From positions 202,836 to 266,835 of IMG/VR virus record IMGVR_UViG_3300001336_000001: a DNA stretch of 64,000 bases; one strand, written 5' to 3'. A program made the position numbers and the translations under genes. The notes below the pieces were generated by a model, which searched no databases, had not been told where the DNA came from, and saw nothing but the letters and a program-made list of their open reading frames with translations. Shown one piece after another: positions 55,014 to 60,385 of this stretch. The DNA is from a virus (lineage: Duplodnaviria; Heunggongvirae; Uroviricota; Caudoviricetes). How positions within the stretch are numbered: position 1 is the stretch's first letter; each line of letters starts with the position of its first letter.

Positions 55014-55451
55014 TTATTTTTTTGTTTTAGTAAATTCGAAATATTCAGATTCTTCAAACACCTCATTAATTAGTTTATCCAATAAAGAAATTATATTATC
55101 TTTAATTATTTTATTCTGGATTTTAAAATCATTCAATTTAAATAGAGTGATTTCACACGACATAAAACTTTTCTTATTATAACTAATACCTGATTGTCTC
55201 ATGTCTAAATCAATAATTGTTTTATTCTTATTAAATAGAGTTGGATTTATATTGTTAAATACTTTTGATTTTATTTTTTTATTTAAGGCTTTAATTACTA
55301 ATCCGTAATCAATATCACTAGCATCAATCGGTTTACCCCAAGCTGATATAATTAAATACATTGATTTTGGGTTATTATTATTAATAGTACCAATTGTAAT
55401 ATTATAATTATTTTTTAAATTTATTTTTAATTTTTTACCATTTTTAATCAT
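55014..55451 (-). CDS. Hypothetical protein
   Basis: 145-aa ORF with its own terminator. Confidence 0.65.
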   Translation of the reverse strand: MIKNGKKLKINLKNNYNITIGTINNNNPKSMYLIISAWGKPIDASDIDYGLVIKALNKKIKSKVFNNINPTLFNKNKTIIDLDMRQSGISYNKKSFMSCEITLFKLNDFKIQNKIIKDNIISLLDKLINEVFEESEYFEFTKTKK

Positions 55452-55509: not shown

Positions 55510-55899
55510 TTATTTTTTAACTTTACCTATAAAAATAATACCATTTATTTCTGGAAAGTACTTACCCTTCCACAACACATCGATAGTTTTATTATTATAA
55601 GATTTTAACTTACAAGATAATTCTTTTTGTGCGTGTCCAGATTTTATCTCATCAACAAAATTATGTATTTTTGGTAACTCATATTCTGGCACAATGTTTT
55701 CCCAACCACCATCAATACAACATTGCTCACCACGCCCAGTAACCAAATCCCAATCACCATTTACTGTAACAAATTTATCTGTCATTGTTGATGCGATTAA
55801 ACGAATAATATACTCATCATTATTCTTTGTTATTTTATCAAGCATTTCAAGCTGCTTAAGCTCTAGTTTTGCAACGGTTAAGTGTAACGGTGTAGTCAT
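55510..55899 (-). CDS. Stand-alone PAS-domain protein
   Basis: FVTVNGDWDLVTG..EQCCIDGGWENIVPEYE...CKLKSYNNKTIDVLWKG...IIFIG aligns by eye with the PAS consensus yvN.awe.ltG...eel.G.gw...vhpeD...e.r....dG...wv......i.i. Confidence 0.6.
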   Translation of the reverse strand: MTTPLHLTVAKLELKQLEMLDKITKNNDEYIIRLIASTMTDKFVTVNGDWDLVTGRGEQCCIDGGWENIVPEYELPKIHNFVDEIKSGHAQKELSCKLKSYNNKTIDVLWKGKYFPEINGIIFIGKVKK

Positions 55900-55904
55900 A
55901 ATTA

Positions 55905-56201
55905 TTATTTATTACAATTTTTAGTTATTTCAGCGATTTTGTTATCAATGTGAGTGATAATTTCATTAATAACCTCATCACTATTTTCTTGATTGGATTT
56001 AATTACTTCTTGTAATCCTTTAGAAGCATCGTTTAAAAGTGGTATTATCTCTTTAAGTTCATTAACACGATTTTCCCTTTCAACCTCTAATCGCCTAATA
56101 ACACCATTTTTTTCTTCTTGAACTGATTTTAACCATAACCACATTATGTAGAATGTAACACCAGCACTACCAAATATTTGTATTAATGAATCTAATTCCA
56201 T
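55905..56201 (-). CDS. Single-TM plus coiled-coil protein (BhlA/UviB holin-like)
   Basis: LIQIFGSAGVTFYIMWLWL hydrophobic helix followed by a charged coiled coil. Confidence 0.5.
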   Translation of the reverse strand: MELDSLIQIFGSAGVTFYIMWLWLKSVQEEKNGVIRRLEVERENRVNELKEIIPLLNDASKGLQEVIKSNQENSDEVINEIITHIDNKIAEITKNCNK

Positions 56202-56202
56202 T

Positions 56203-56994
56203 TTACTTATTATCGTTTAATACTTTTTTTAATTCTAAAACTTTAGAAACATCATTTATAAACGTTTCCGAAACGTATGCTCTATCAAGTAGATTTTCCT
56301 TTACCGATAACAATTTCTCTTTAACATCACCACTTGATTCTTTTAATTTAGTATTAACTAAAGTAGTACATTCCTTAATGGTATCTTCATAATATTCAGA
56401 CTTAGCCTTATCATCACCACCAATTACTAATTTAATAAAAGCCTTTTCAGATTCATTTAAATCTGAATAATTATTATTAAATTTTTCAACAGCAATCTCA
56501 GAAAGGACACTATTAGGTAACCCATACCCTTCATCAACAGTAGGTACTATTATGTTATTATTAATGTGGTTAATAACATTATGTTTAGCCTCAACAATCT
56601 TATCAATAGTCTTAGATGTCTTTTTAGTGGTTATTAATGTTGAAATACTTTCGTATAATCTTTCCTGAGTATCACTAATATTAGGTTTAATTTCTTTATT
56701 ACCCAACAATGATAATAATTTACTATTTGATTCAGCGATTTGTTTTGGGTTATATTTAGACAATAATGATACAGTTTCATTAACATAATCCAAAGCCCTA
56801 AATTTATCAGAATCAAAAGCAACTTCTAATTTGTGATACACATTAAATTGGTCCCTTAAACACTTATCTTCCTTTAAAAGTTTAAGATATTGTTTAAACA
56901 ACACTTTATTGGTGCCATCATTGTTAACAATACCTTCACTCAACACCTCATTATAGATTGATTTTATTTTACCAAAATTGTCCATAGTTTTCAT
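56203..56994 (-). CDS. Head-module helical protein (prohead core-like)
   Basis: Between portal and protease; late motif at 57004-57011. Confidence 0.55.
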   Translation of the reverse strand: MKTMDNFGKIKSIYNEVLSEGIVNNDGTNKVLFKQYLKLLKEDKCLRDQFNVYHKLEVAFDSDKFRALDYVNETVSLLSKYNPKQIAESNSKLLSLLGNKEIKPNISDTQERLYESISTLITTKKTSKTIDKIVEAKHNVINHINNNIIVPTVDEGYGLPNSVLSEIAVEKFNNNYSDLNESEKAFIKLVIGGDDKAKSEYYEDTIKECTTLVNTKLKESSGDVKEKLLSVKENLLDRAYVSETFINDVSKVLELKKVLNDNK

Positions 56995-57034
56995 TATTTA
57001 ATAATAAATATATTACTATAGTAATAAAAACCAG

Positions 57035-60000
57035 TTAATCCTTTAACATATTATCAATATCATTAATTATACCATTGATATCTTCATTAATTTTTAAACT
57101 TTTATCATAAACCTTAACTCTTTCATTTATGATTATATCTTTTTCTTTTTTGTTAACACTACGCATTAAATTATCGAATCTTTGTGTTTTATTTTTGTTT
57201 ATTTTACGACCTTCAGTAATTAAATTTTTACTATTACGTAATGATTCCCCCGCAATCTCTGGCTCACCACCTTCCTCTGGAACCTCACCACCTTCCTCTG
57301 GAACCTCACCACCTTCATCACCAAATTCACCTTCATCACCAAATTCATCAGAAAAATCATCAGCCCCAGCATCAAAATCTAAACCTCCACCACCGAAGCC
57401 ACCTCCACCTACTGGACCACCTTCATCATCACCACCTTCATCATCAGAACCATCACCACCTTGTTTAGCGATTTCTAAATCACCATAAATGGCATCAACT
57501 TTATCGAATGTCCCAGTGTGTTTGATTACTTTACTAGTATTCTCAAGTTCAGCAGCAGCTGCTTTTTCCATTCTTTGCTCTAACAAATCCTGTTTTATTT
57601 CATCATCACTCCAGTTAAGTATTTCCCTATGCGCCCTAGTCATAGACATAGGTGCAAATCCATTACCTGAATCAGAAACAGCATCTTTAAATAACGTTAC
57701 TTTAGCTTGAAGTTGCTCAATCATCAACATTTCAGCTTGGGTCGATGGGTTATTTAACGTGAGTGTAAAATTATCTAAATCATCCTCAAACCCCAACATA
57801 TATAAATGTATTATAGCTATCTTATTTAGTTCAGATAACATTGCTTGCTGTATTCTATTTATTGTTCTAGAAAACCTAACATCCTGTAAGGCTAAGTTTT
57901 TACCATCACCTATTGCCTCATCAAAATTTAAAAAAGATTTAGGTACCCTAAGTGCGGTAAACAATTTTCTTTGTAAATATTGTATATCGGCTATCTGGTC
58001 CAAATTACTATTTTTAATAAAAACACCACTTTCTGTTGCAAAAGTGTGGTGATTATGGTATATTTCATCCCCATCAACGGTAATTGTACCAGTATCCATT
58101 TTATTATCTAACCATTCAATCGACACAATTTTATGGTTGTAGTTAGACTCAATATCTGACAATTGGTTTTTATTAATATAATACCTCCAAGCTCTAACAT
58201 TTTTATAACCTAATTCTTCTGCTGTAATTTTACACCATTCTCTATAATTTTTAAACCCACGTTCTTTTAACATTTTATCTAAATGGTTTCTGGTGAATTC
58301 GTTTAGATTTGTCATTGAACTTCTAATACCTTCATTTGAGGTGTTAAATTCAACCATAAAATCAGTTGATTTATTAAGTTCTACTAAAGTTAAATCAGCC
58401 TTACCATATAGTTTAAACATTTCTAAGAACATGTTATATAGTTCACCAGTAAATGTCAGTGTTTGTTTCTTACTAAAAACTTTTTCTCTATATTCAGTAG
58501 ACTCCCAGTTCTTTTTCGAAATTTCAGAAAATCTCTCTTTAAATTCTTCACTTGATTTAGTTTTACTAATTGCTTCACCTCTACCTTTAATAATGTTTTT
58601 TTTGTTTGGGTTTTTATTAAACGTTTCATTAGCTTTACATCTAGAGTTAATTGAATTTAATCTAGATTGCTCACCTCTAACAATCCTTTCCTCATTAGTT
58701 AGGTTTGAAATATGGTTATTAATACCCTTCGTTATTTTTCTAACATTTTCTTCATGTTTTTTTGGTGTAGACCACAACTCGTGTCTATGGTATTTATAAT
58801 GGTCTCTAGAGTCCATTAAATATAGGTTATTTGGGTTGTTATTAAATCTATCGTTATCCATATGATGTATAGTACCCATTTTGGTTCTATCATAACCCCC
58901 TTCAAACGTAAAATACTGTTCTTCATCGATACTTTTCATAAAATCATTAACCATTCTATGTGTGAAAACCCATTCTTGTTTCGATGAATCCCATACCCTA
59001 TCATATTTTTTAGCGTATTTCTTATTTAATATAACTTCTTCACCCCTATAAAAAGGCATAAGACTATCACCTACTTTTAAATCCTTAGCCTCAACAAAAC
59101 CTTTTGTTCTATGGACCCATTTATGGTCTGGTGTTGTGGTTATTGATTTACCATTATCTAAAGTTATTTTTAATACTTGCGCATCTTTTCTAGTTTCACC
59201 AGCCCACGTTATAATACCTGGAGCTAACTCTCCAGTATTTGGGTCACAAGAATATACCCATAGATTTCTATTACCTTTATTCCATTCATATATAATCTCA
59301 TTAAGTTCCAAAGTTCTACCATCAAGTAATGGTATTCTAGTGTCTAAACTAATACAAGCACCAGGTAGTGTATCGATAGGGTTAGGCGCATCCTCACTCC
59401 TAACAGGTATGAAATAATCTTGGTCATTAGCTAAAGTATTATACCTCAAATCAACCTGACCTGTTTGGGGGTCAACTATCGGTGTTCTTTTAAACCTATT
59501 AGCAATTTCCTCAACATATGCTGGTACATCCTCATCATCAATATTACCAACAAATATTTTATACACACGCCTTTCTGGCGCTCTAGTTATACGGTAAACC
59601 AACATAGCATCTTCAGACATCAATAATTGTTTCCAAATACGTCTAGCTTTTTCCAAAACTGAGGTACCGTAGGGTAAACGTCTATCATCACCCAATAACC
59701 TAAAATGTGCTATTTGCCAAGAATTAAATATAGCATCTCTACCCCTCCATAAAAATTTAACTTTAGTTGGACCCTCATCATCAACATCCTCACTATTAAA
59801 ACGATTTCTACCACTAATCATATTTTCAAGGATATCACCCTCCCTACGCTCTATCTCGAAATTAGGTAACTGCCTAGCACCCAAAACCCCTTGTTTATCA
59901 TCAATGTTTAATAAAACAAAATTATCACCATATTTACACGTATTTCTAGTCCACATTGGTAGTGAAACGTGAATATCCAATCGGTTAAAGAATAAATCCT

Positions 60001-60385
60001 CTAAAACACCCTTAATCCTAGAAGAATCTGAATAAATATTAAGTATTTTACCCTTTTCATTTATAGTTGTTGATTCTTCCATCATAACATCTAAAGCCGC
60101 TGCAATTTCTGGGTAAAATTCCATACTCTCAAAATCAGTATAGGAACCAATTCTAGTTGTTTCATAATGTAATGTTTGTTGAAACAACTCACCGTCAACC
60201 TTTTTCCAAACATTTCTCAAATACTTTGTTTGTTGAGCTTGTAATTTGGCTGAATCGAATTCTTCTTTTGATTGTGTTTTTAACAAAACATTGTTATCAA
60301 TAGAATATTTATTAGATTGTGGTTTAGAAACACCAGTTGGTCCTAAAATAGTGTTTAACCTTTGAAATATAGTTTGTTTTGGCAT
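57035..60385 (-). CDS. Portal protein (T4 gp20-like) with intein; 667 aa after splicing
   Basis: PEIAAALD, R..CKYGD.F, SVLEKARRIWKQL..EDAMLVYRITRAPERRV, DYFIPVR, IDTLPGA|SNL..I.DI.YL..KLF.AL.VP. Confidence 0.95.
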   Translation of the reverse strand: MPKQTIFQRLNTILGPTGVSKPQSNKYSIDNNVLLKTQSKEEFDSAKLQAQQTKYLRNVWKKVDGELFQQTLHYETTRIGSYTDFESMEFYPEIAAALDVMMEESTTINEKGKILNIYSDSSRIKGVLEDLFFNRLDIHVSLPMWTRNTCKYGDNFVLLNIDDKQGVLGARQLPNFEIERREGDILENMISGRNRFNSEDVDDEGPTKVKFLWRGRDAIFNSWQIAHFRLLGDDRRLPYGTSVLEKARRIWKQLLMSEDAMLVYRITRAPERRVYKIFVGNIDDEDVPAYVEEIANRFKRTPIVDPQTGQVDLRYNTLANDQDYFIPVRSEDAPNPIDTLPGACISLDTRIPLLDGRTLELNEIIYEWNKGNRNLWVYSCDPNTGELAPGIITWAGETRKDAQVLKITLDNGKSITTTPDHKWVHRTKGFVEAKDLKVGDSLMPFYRGEEVILNKKYAKKYDRVWDSSKQEWVFTHRMVNDFMKSIDEEQYFTFEGGYDRTKMGTIHHMDNDRFNNNPNNLYLMDSRDHYKYHRHELWSTPKKHEENVRKITKGINNHISNLTNEERIVRGEQSRLNSINSRCKANETFNKNPNKKNIIKGRGEAISKTKSSEEFKERFSEISKKNWESTEYREKVFSKKQTLTFTGELYNMFLEMFKLYGKADLTLVELNKSTDFMVEFNTSNEGIRSSMTNLNEFTRNHLDKMLKERGFKNYREWCKITAEELGYKNVRAWRYYINKNQLSDIESNYNHKIVSIEWLDNKMDTGTITVDGDEIYHNHHTFATESGVFIKNSNLDQIADIQYLQRKLFTALRVPKSFLNFDEAIGDGKNLALQDVRFSRTINRIQQAMLSELNKIAIIHLYMLGFEDDLDNFTLTLNNPSTQAEMLMIEQLQAKVTLFKDAVSDSGNGFAPMSMTRAHREILNWSDDEIKQDLLEQRMEKAAAAELENTSKVIKHTGTFDKVDAIYGDLEIAKQGGDGSDDEGGDDEGGPVGGGGFGGGGLDFDAGADDFSDEFGDEGEFGDEGGEVPEEGGEVPEEGGEPEIAGESLRNSKNLITEGRKINKNKTQRFDNLMRSVNKKEKDIIINERVKVYDKSLKINEDINGIINDIDNMLKD
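58010..59356 (-). mobile_element. Intein (residues 344-792, 449 aa) with HNH endonuclease
   Basis: Block A CISLDTRIPLLDG, block B NGKSITTTPDHKW, HNH IHHMDNDRFNNNPNNL....H..YH, block F/G HTFATESGVFIKN|S. Confidence 0.93.

What the first reader, a model, noticed from the sequence alone, without database searches (positions are those of the whole stretch)
55510..56201. Holin-like membrane protein paired with a stand-alone PAS sensor inside the head module
Seen: two tightly spaced genes co-transcribed from the late motif at 57004. One is a single-TM coiled-coil protein; the other is a 129-aa protein with a short N-terminal helix and a PAS-like pattern containing a Cys-Cys pair near the predicted pocket. 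No kinase or other output domain is present. Established: PAS domains sense light, redox, oxygen or small ligands. Inference: a sensor that tunes lysis timing or assembly to host state by binding the membrane partner, or a decoy for host two-component signalling. I know of no described phage system of this form.
Basis: partly seen in the sequence, partly recalled or inferred. Interest (0 to 1): 0.75.

Follow-up and report, generated by a model that had tools for sequence, protein, structure and literature searches.

The report
Phage holin-like protein with PAS partner
A 288-kb uncultured phage carries a small membrane protein and a separate sensor-type (PAS) protein that always travel together and sit where related phages keep known or likely cell-bursting (holin) genes, so the pair probably helps time host lysis, though neither lysis nor sensing has been shown.

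Summary
Both genes are real. The 129-aa protein is a PAS domain (AlphaFold pLDDT 86.5; Z 15.2 to solved PAS domains; Pfam PAS_3 in 43/57 homologues) with no output domain. The 98-aa partner has one N-terminal membrane helix and a probably cytoplasmic coiled coil. Wherever the contig allows a check, the two genes are adjacent, including in unrelated phages and at other genomic sites. About half of the ten outside contexts are beside cell-wall enzymes. The head-module position is not a functional clue. It is a swap slot: 82 of 100 related loci lack the pair and hold a Pfam-confirmed holin, other membrane proteins (some with GAF-like, cupin or a second PAS family), or nothing. The Cys-Cys pair is not conserved (6/57); LOV and FixL cofactor motifs are absent. 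The late-promoter unit has three genes, not two. Best reading (0.55): a mobile lysis-accessory module, a holin-like protein plus cytoplasmic PAS modulator, working like T4 T/RIII but not a member. Ligand gating is about 0.3. I found no paper on it. This scan noted the same pair in another genome, and PAS-holin cassettes in 41 findings.

The parts
57004..57011 (-). Late-promoter-like motif ATATTTAT heading the unit 263-aa gene / TM98 / PAS129
   Evidence: Upstream of 49/303 genes vs 4.7 expected; kept at the same place in 7 related loci; also before terminase, protease, scaffold genes. Intergenic AT-richness inflates the ratio somewhat.
56203..56994 (-). 263-aa conserved gene of unknown function (left border of the swap slot; not part of the mobile pair)
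   Evidence: Present in all related head modules with or without the pair; no informative Pfam/PHROG hit
55905..56201 (-). TM98: single-pass, holin-like membrane protein with coiled-coil tail
   Evidence: 48 database hits including itself; membrane segment 91% and residues 45-66 86% conserved; mean K+R 0.02 before and 3.8 after the helix, so N-out/C-in by the positive-inside rule (inference); no curated family
56130..56186 (-). Predicted membrane helix of TM98 (residues 6-24)
   Evidence: Hydropathy 1.55; invariant I9 F10 G11 A13 G14 F17 Y18 M20 W21 W23
55510..55899 (-). PAS129: soluble stand-alone PAS protein
   Evidence: 58 homologues, all 113-138 aa; PAS_3 in 43/57; AF2 model and fold searches
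55831..55890 (-). N-terminal amphipathic helix of PAS129 (residues 4-23), candidate docking or dimer helix
   Evidence: Helix in the model; most conserved region among divergent members (0.64 vs 0.37 for E/F helices); docking role is inference
55516..55815 (-). PAS core (residues 29-128)
   Evidence: Five strands and helices in PAS order; Z 15.2 to 8px4, Z 14.4 / rmsd 1.8 to KinA PAS-A
55014..55451 (-). 145-aa conserved gene of unknown function (right border of the swap slot; not part of the pair)
   Evidence: Present in related head modules regardless of slot content

Best explanation
TM98 and PAS129 form a mobile, phage-specific two-gene lysis-accessory module. Both are made late (inferred from the motif). 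TM98 inserts in the inner membrane N-out/C-in (inferred from charges) and acts as a holin or co-holin for an endolysin encoded elsewhere (inferred from context). PAS129 stays in the cytoplasm, docks on the TM98 coiled coil through its N-terminal helix or sheet face (inferred, not shown) and delays or tunes hole formation, as a cytoplasmic antiholin does. Whether the PAS pocket reads a host ligand (about half of this probability) or only serves as a binding and dimer scaffold is open. Shown: fold, strict pairing, mobility, slot exchange with a holin, adjacency to endolysins in other phages. Not shown: expression, binding, lysis, ligand.
For: Pairing: 24/25 viral contigs found with PAS have TM98 directly upstream (the other is cut) and 24/24 found with TM98 have PAS downstream; 25/27 metagenome loci, the other two cut. 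The ORFs overlap by 4-32 nt in many members. The pair recurs in other phage lineages and at other sites. Lysis context outside this slot: 2.5 kb before a PG-binding M15 endolysin (L040), directly before its homologue (L047, L238), directly before an NlpC/P60 gene, and among small membrane genes with an M15-like protein (L043, by eye only). Slot: of 100 related loci 14 hold a PF05105-type holin (L066: 38.5 bits vs cut-off 22.2), 51 a coiled-coil/C-terminal-TM protein, 7 a TM plus GAF-like protein, 7 nothing; 90 of 93 filled slots have a hydrophobic segment vs 17% of genes genome-wide; the pair never co-occurs with the holin, coiled-coil/TM or TM-GAF types. The genome has a PG-binding amidase and no PF05105 holin. 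Single-TM N-out/C-in proteins with charged helical tails are proven lysis factors (LysF1b, PMC13056207; BhlA, PMC9527704).
Against: TM98 matches no holin family; the only link is an Atlas cluster with 10% PF10960 members at score 0.90. Half of the outside contexts are not lysis clusters: replication/metabolism genes (L045/L050), poly(A) polymerase (L049, L237), virion genes (L044, L048). Three of the five lysis contexts share one endolysin family, so they may not be independent. Only one of the slot's alternative families is a recognised holin. The genome has another two-TM holin candidate (genome 74046-74321), and L040 has further holin-like genes, so TM98 need not be the hole former. No conserved ligand-binding signature was found.
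Confidence: 0.55

Rival explanations
1. The pair is a non-lytic membrane module, for example for superinfection exclusion, membrane-integrity maintenance or energy-state sensing, in which PAS129 regulates TM98 without any role in endolysin release.
For: Half of the outside contexts lack lysis genes; the slot also collects glutamine-synthetase-like and other passengers; weak hydropathy and no holin family match.
Against: Direct adjacency to endolysins in several phages; exchange with a PF05105 holin at the same slot; late-motif control.
Confidence: 0.2
2. PAS129 is a decoy or adaptor that pairs with PAS domains of host sensor kinases, and TM98 is only its membrane anchor.
For: Nearest non-family relatives are PAS repeats of long multi-domain signalling proteins; the genome has no kinase or receiver of its own.
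Against: Similarity to host PAS domains is remote and excludes the conserved N-terminal helix; it does not explain the slot exchange with holins or the endolysin neighbours; late expression is an odd time to rewire host transcription (inference).
Confidence: 0.12
3. The pair assists head assembly, for instance by tethering proheads to the inner membrane.
For: Position between portal and protease and late-motif control in this phage group.
Against: 82 of 100 related head modules lack the pair, 7 have an empty slot, including the sister group of this phage's clade; four complete relatives lack both genes anywhere; in other phages the pair lies far from head genes.
Confidence: 0.07

Closest known systems
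T4 holin T with cytoplasmic antiholin RIII and periplasmic antiholin RI (PMC8385771, PMC11413866)
   Same: Single-pass lysis protein whose timing is set by separate soluble partners; RIII binds the cytoplasmic part of T; lysis genes dispersed in a T4-like genome.
   Different: T is N-in/C-out with a large periplasmic domain; TM98 is predicted N-out/C-in with only a coiled coil. No sequence match. RIII is not described as a PAS protein (own knowledge). The pair is mobile and genetically coupled, unlike t and rIII.
BhlA/UviB/TpeE single-TM holins (PF10960, TCDB 1.E.27; PMC9527704)
   Same: Small size, one N-terminal aromatic-rich membrane helix, helical charged tail; an Atlas neighbour cluster has 10% PF10960 members.
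   Different: No PF10960 match; mainly Firmicutes there, a Bacteroidota-type host here; no PAS partner is described for that family.
LysF1b of mycobacteriophages Girr and NormanBulbieJr (PMC13056207)
   Same: One N-terminal TM helix, predicted N-out/C-in, basic residues after the helix, long charged cytoplasmic helix; works with a second (two-TM) protein.
   Different: No homology tested or found; its partner is a membrane protein, not a soluble PAS domain; actinobacterial host.
VqmA-Phage of vibriophage VP882 (PMC8284805)
   Same: A phage-encoded PAS domain that links a host small molecule (DPO) to the lytic programme.
   Different: VqmA is PAS plus a DNA-binding domain and acts on transcription in a temperate phage; PAS129 has no output domain and is tied to a membrane protein in a late unit.
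Uncharacterised fused TM-PAS phage proteins, e.g. Cellulophaga phage phi19:1 gp108
   Same: PAS-like fold (BFVD hit) with a membrane helix, next to a holin-like gene and near the lysozyme gene.
   Different: Fused instead of split; different sequence family (no tblastn match); also untested.

Membership tests
PAS domain superfamily | Five-stranded antiparallel sheet with intervening helices (PAS fold) | tested here: met
   AF2 pLDDT 86.5; 165 PDB matches at E<=0.001, listed ones all PAS; Z 15.2, rmsd 3.5, 109 aligned
PAS domain superfamily | Sequence profile match to PAS Pfam models | tested here: met
   The window protein itself has no hit, but 43/57 homologues match PAS_3, best E 9.8e-8
PAS domain superfamily | Binds a ligand or cofactor and signals (true of only some PAS domains) | not testable with these tools
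   Needs purified protein; no conserved polar pocket motif recognised
LOV (flavin) PAS | GxNCRFLQ motif with photoactive Cys | tested here: not met
   Motif absent from all aligned members; the corresponding stretch reads G-K-x-W with Trp66 in 54/57 (positional equivalence is my inference)
FixL-type haem PAS | Conserved proximal His on the F helix | tested here: not met
   No His among invariant or near-invariant columns; His79 in 2/57
BhlA/UviB holins (PF10960) | Profile match above the family cut-off | tested here: not met
   Not listed at E<=1 for TM98 nor among the 25 families shown for 46 members
BhlA/UviB holins (PF10960) | Small protein, single N-terminal TM helix, cytoplasmic helical tail | tested here: met
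   Hydropathy and charge asymmetry; topology is a prediction
Holins in general | Permeabilises the inner membrane and releases an endolysin at a set time | not testable with these tools
   Only context supports it
T4 T (class IIIa holin) / RI / RIII system | N-in/C-out holin with a large periplasmic domain | tested here: not met
   TM98 is 98 aa with basic residues after the helix and no globular domain
T4 T (class IIIa holin) / RI / RIII system | Soluble partner binds the holin and delays lysis | not testable with these tools
   Needs binding and lysis assays
Rz/Rz1 spanins | N-in/C-out coiled-coil protein with an adjacent or nested lipoprotein | tested here: not met
   Only a weak PHROG hit (E 0.061); predicted topology is the opposite; the neighbour is a soluble PAS protein with no signal or lipobox
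Two-component system | Histidine kinase and receiver domains | tested here: not met
   No HisKA or Response_reg match in the complete genome, controls positive in 12 of 14 genomes

The most novel reading that the evidence does not exclude
PAS129 is a ligand-gated cytoplasmic antiholin: it binds a host metabolite or redox cue and, through TM98, moves the moment of lysis. The slot's repeated, independent pairing of membrane proteins with PAS, GAF-like or cupin domains would then show that these jumbo phages have evolved host-state-controlled lysis timers several times.
Probability: 0.28. Interest if true: 0.85.

Novelty: new variant of a known kind. Interest (0 to 1): 0.58.

Why it matters
Known control of lysis timing responds to superinfection (T4 RI/RIII) or works through transcription (VP882 VqmA). 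A soluble PAS protein acting directly on a holin-like protein would let a lytic phage set burst time by the state of the host cytoplasm. The split two-gene form is small and easy to test, and the swap slot gives natural comparisons (known holin, TM-GAF-like, a second PAS family, empty). It also points to the likely holin locus of a large uncultured phage group whose lysis genes are dispersed and unannotated.

Tried and rejected
Complex prediction of TM98 (20-98) with PAS129 gave no answer (score 0.01); it counts neither way. Fused forms: a search of longer proteins with the TM98 alignment found none (weak test); the profile search found no TM98-PAS fusion among listed stand-alone hits, only one PAS129 with a second C-terminal PAS. 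No match in 50,697 phage records, in PDB sequences or, by pattern scan, in 185,579 prokaryote genomes. Searches returned nothing for technical reasons. One search used a wrong query by my mistake and is ignored. Cys-Cys redox switch rejected (6/57). Spanin rejected on topology. The GAF call for the alternative 200-aa slot protein rests on a low-confidence model (pLDDT 59, best Z 7.2, mostly GAF hits) and is only probable. TM98/PAS129 distance correlation (Spearman 0.71) shows co-inheritance, not co-evolution. The AU test rejects one clade for pair carriers (p 1e-34, quick tree, 56 rows after thinning) but does not tell gains from losses. Literature searches for PAS with holin, jumbo phage or lysis found no description of such a system; the library lacks most subscription papers.

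Full report
Setting. The window lies in a complete 287,855-bp phage genome with direct terminal repeats. The region is a T4-like head module on the minus strand: terminase, an 81-aa gene, portal, a 263-aa gene, the two genes in question, a 145-aa gene, prohead protease, scaffold-like gene and major capsid protein. The nearest cultured capsid relatives are distant (38-42%: Flavobacterium phage immuto, Microcystis phage Mel-JY01). The Bacteroidota-type promoter TTG-N20-TAnnTTTG occurs 98 times against 9-18 in resampled sequence, which points to a Bacteroidota host.

Observation. The motif ATATTTAT at 57004-57011 is enriched upstream of genes (49 of 303 against about 5 expected) and is kept at this place in relatives. 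It heads a three-gene unit, because the 263-aa gene lies between it and TM98. Co-transcription is inferred from spacing; no reads could be examined.

PAS129. The protein itself has no Pfam hit, but 43 of 57 aligned homologues match PAS_3. AlphaFold gives a confident model (pLDDT 86.5) with an N-terminal helix and a full five-stranded PAS core. The listed Foldseek and VIA matches are PAS domains (best Z 15.2; KinA PAS-A Z 14.4, rmsd 1.8). Close homologues are 113-138 aa and divergent ones 126-156 aa, so the stand-alone form is the rule; one has a second PAS added. No kinase or receiver was found in the genome. The Cys-Cys pair is a local feature (6/57); Cys61 is common but replaced by Phe, Ser, Val, Thr or Pro in some members. 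There is no LOV motif and no conserved His. Conservation is highest in the N-terminal helix and the A/B and I strands and lowest in the E/F helices. That pattern fits a conserved interaction surface at least as well as a conserved ligand pocket (inference).

TM98. It has one modestly hydrophobic helix near the N-terminus that is 91% conserved, and a second conserved block at residues 45-66. Basic residues lie after the helix (mean 3.8) and not before it (0.02), so the tail is probably cytoplasmic, in the same compartment as PAS129 (inference). It matches no curated family. The Atlas places it among small viral proteins, one cluster with 10% BhlA holin members, which is a lead only.

Pairing. 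Every locus long enough to check has both genes in the same order: 24 of 25 viral contigs found with PAS129, 24 of 24 found with TM98, and 25 of 27 metagenome loci; the exceptions are contig ends. These sets overlap and include close kin. More telling, divergent PAS129 relatives in other phage lineages and at other genomic sites have a TM98 homologue directly upstream in all seven places where the upstream gene could be read, and the ORFs often overlap. The pair was not found in cultured phages or prokaryote genomes.

Where the pair sits elsewhere. Of ten contexts outside the head slot, five are lysis-like: a cluster ending in a PG-binding M15 endolysin (L040), directly before a homologous endolysin (L047, L238), directly before an NlpC/P60 gene, and among small membrane genes with an M15-like protein recognised only by eye (L043). 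The others are beside replication or metabolism genes, poly(A) polymerase, virion genes or unknown genes. Three of the five share one endolysin family and may not be independent.

The head-module slot. Searching with the flanking 263-aa and 145-aa genes gave 100 distinct loci that span the slot. Eighteen hold the pair (over-sampled, as they were also fetched by it). The others hold a PF05105-type holin (14; L066 passes the cut-off), a coiled-coil protein with a C-terminal membrane helix (51, of which 39 with a 75-aa helical protein and 5 with a different stand-alone PAS family), a membrane-anchored probable GAF protein (7), a TM protein with a cupin (1), or nothing (7). Ninety of 93 filled slots contain a hydrophobic segment, against 17% of genes genome-wide. 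The pair never shares the slot with the holin, coiled-coil/TM or TM-GAF types. Its carriers fall in at least three separate parts of the tree of flanking genes, and four complete relatives lack both genes altogether. So the position is an exchange site for membrane cassettes and gives no support for a head-assembly role. The second PAS family is only remotely related to PAS129 (hhalign 11%) and shares its N-terminal helix with the 75-aa proteins that replace it next to the same membrane partner. This suggests that such helices are the docking element and that PAS was recruited twice (inference).

Mechanism. The best reading is a lysis-accessory module: TM98 as holin or co-holin, PAS129 as cytoplasmic modulator. 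The genome encodes a PG-binding amidase far away and no PF05105 holin, but it also has a two-TM holin candidate elsewhere, so TM98 may be a partner of the hole former, as with LysF1a/LysF1b (PMC13056207). I put 0.55 on a lysis role, about half of that with true ligand gating, 0.2 on a non-lytic membrane role, 0.12 on a host-signalling decoy and 0.07 on head assembly.

Comparison with known systems. It would work like T4 T with the cytoplasmic antiholin RIII (PMC8385771, PMC11413866), but fails membership on topology and sequence. TM98 has the build of BhlA/TpeE holins (PMC9527704) and LysF1b without matching their profiles. VP882 VqmA is a phage PAS sensor tied to lysis but acts through transcription (PMC8284805). 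Fused TM-PAS proteins occur in lysis regions of cultured phages such as phi19:1 gp108 and are uncharacterised. I found no paper describing a PAS protein acting on a holin. This scan has noted the same pair in another genome and many PAS-holin cassettes; these notes were used as leads only.

Verdict. A real, strictly coupled, mobile and undescribed phage module with good contextual but no direct evidence for a lysis role. New variant of a known kind (holin plus soluble regulator); interest 0.58.

Noticed in passing
window 58010-59356 (-), inside the portal ORF 57035-60385: The portal gene is 1116 aa against about 680 in relatives; residues 344-792 look like a 449-aa intein (starts Cys, ends Asn before Ser) with an HNH endonuclease hit. 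L213 also has an enlarged portal ORF.
   Followed up: partly
L061:3674-4924, L142, L143, L179, L185: A second stand-alone PAS family (145-152 aa, PAS_3 68 bits; two copies in L061) pairs with a coiled-coil/C-terminal-TM protein in the same slot; in 39 other loci a 75-aa helical protein with a similar N-terminal helix takes its place.
   Followed up: partly
L109:3971-4579, L108, L111, L112, L119, L180, L093: Membrane-anchored 196-216-aa proteins with a probable GAF domain in the same slot; basic residues after the helix suggest a cytoplasmic domain, the opposite of T4 holin T.
   Followed up: partly
L181:5820-6589: An 83-aa TM/coiled-coil protein paired with a 165-aa stand-alone cupin in the same slot, a possible third sensor-plus-membrane pairing.
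   Followed up: partly
L066:3893-4993 and 23 other loci: A 358-384-aa protein with glutamine-synthetase-like motifs (by eye) often follows the membrane genes in the slot.
   Followed up: no
L039:260-1024: A PAS129 homologue extended by a second PAS domain (254 aa), still preceded by TM98.
   Followed up: partly
window 55014-55451 and 56203-56994: The 145-aa and 263-aa genes flanking the slot are conserved head-module genes of this phage group (89 and 234 matching stretches in viral contigs) with no known family.
   Followed up: no
L231:247-522 (genome 74046-74321, outside the window): A two-TM protein homologous to a slot occupant of L066/L076, lying alone among tRNA-region genes; a second holin candidate. 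A PG-binding amidase (genome 62767-63546) and a spanin-like gene (122241-123110, by eye) are also dispersed.
   Followed up: partly
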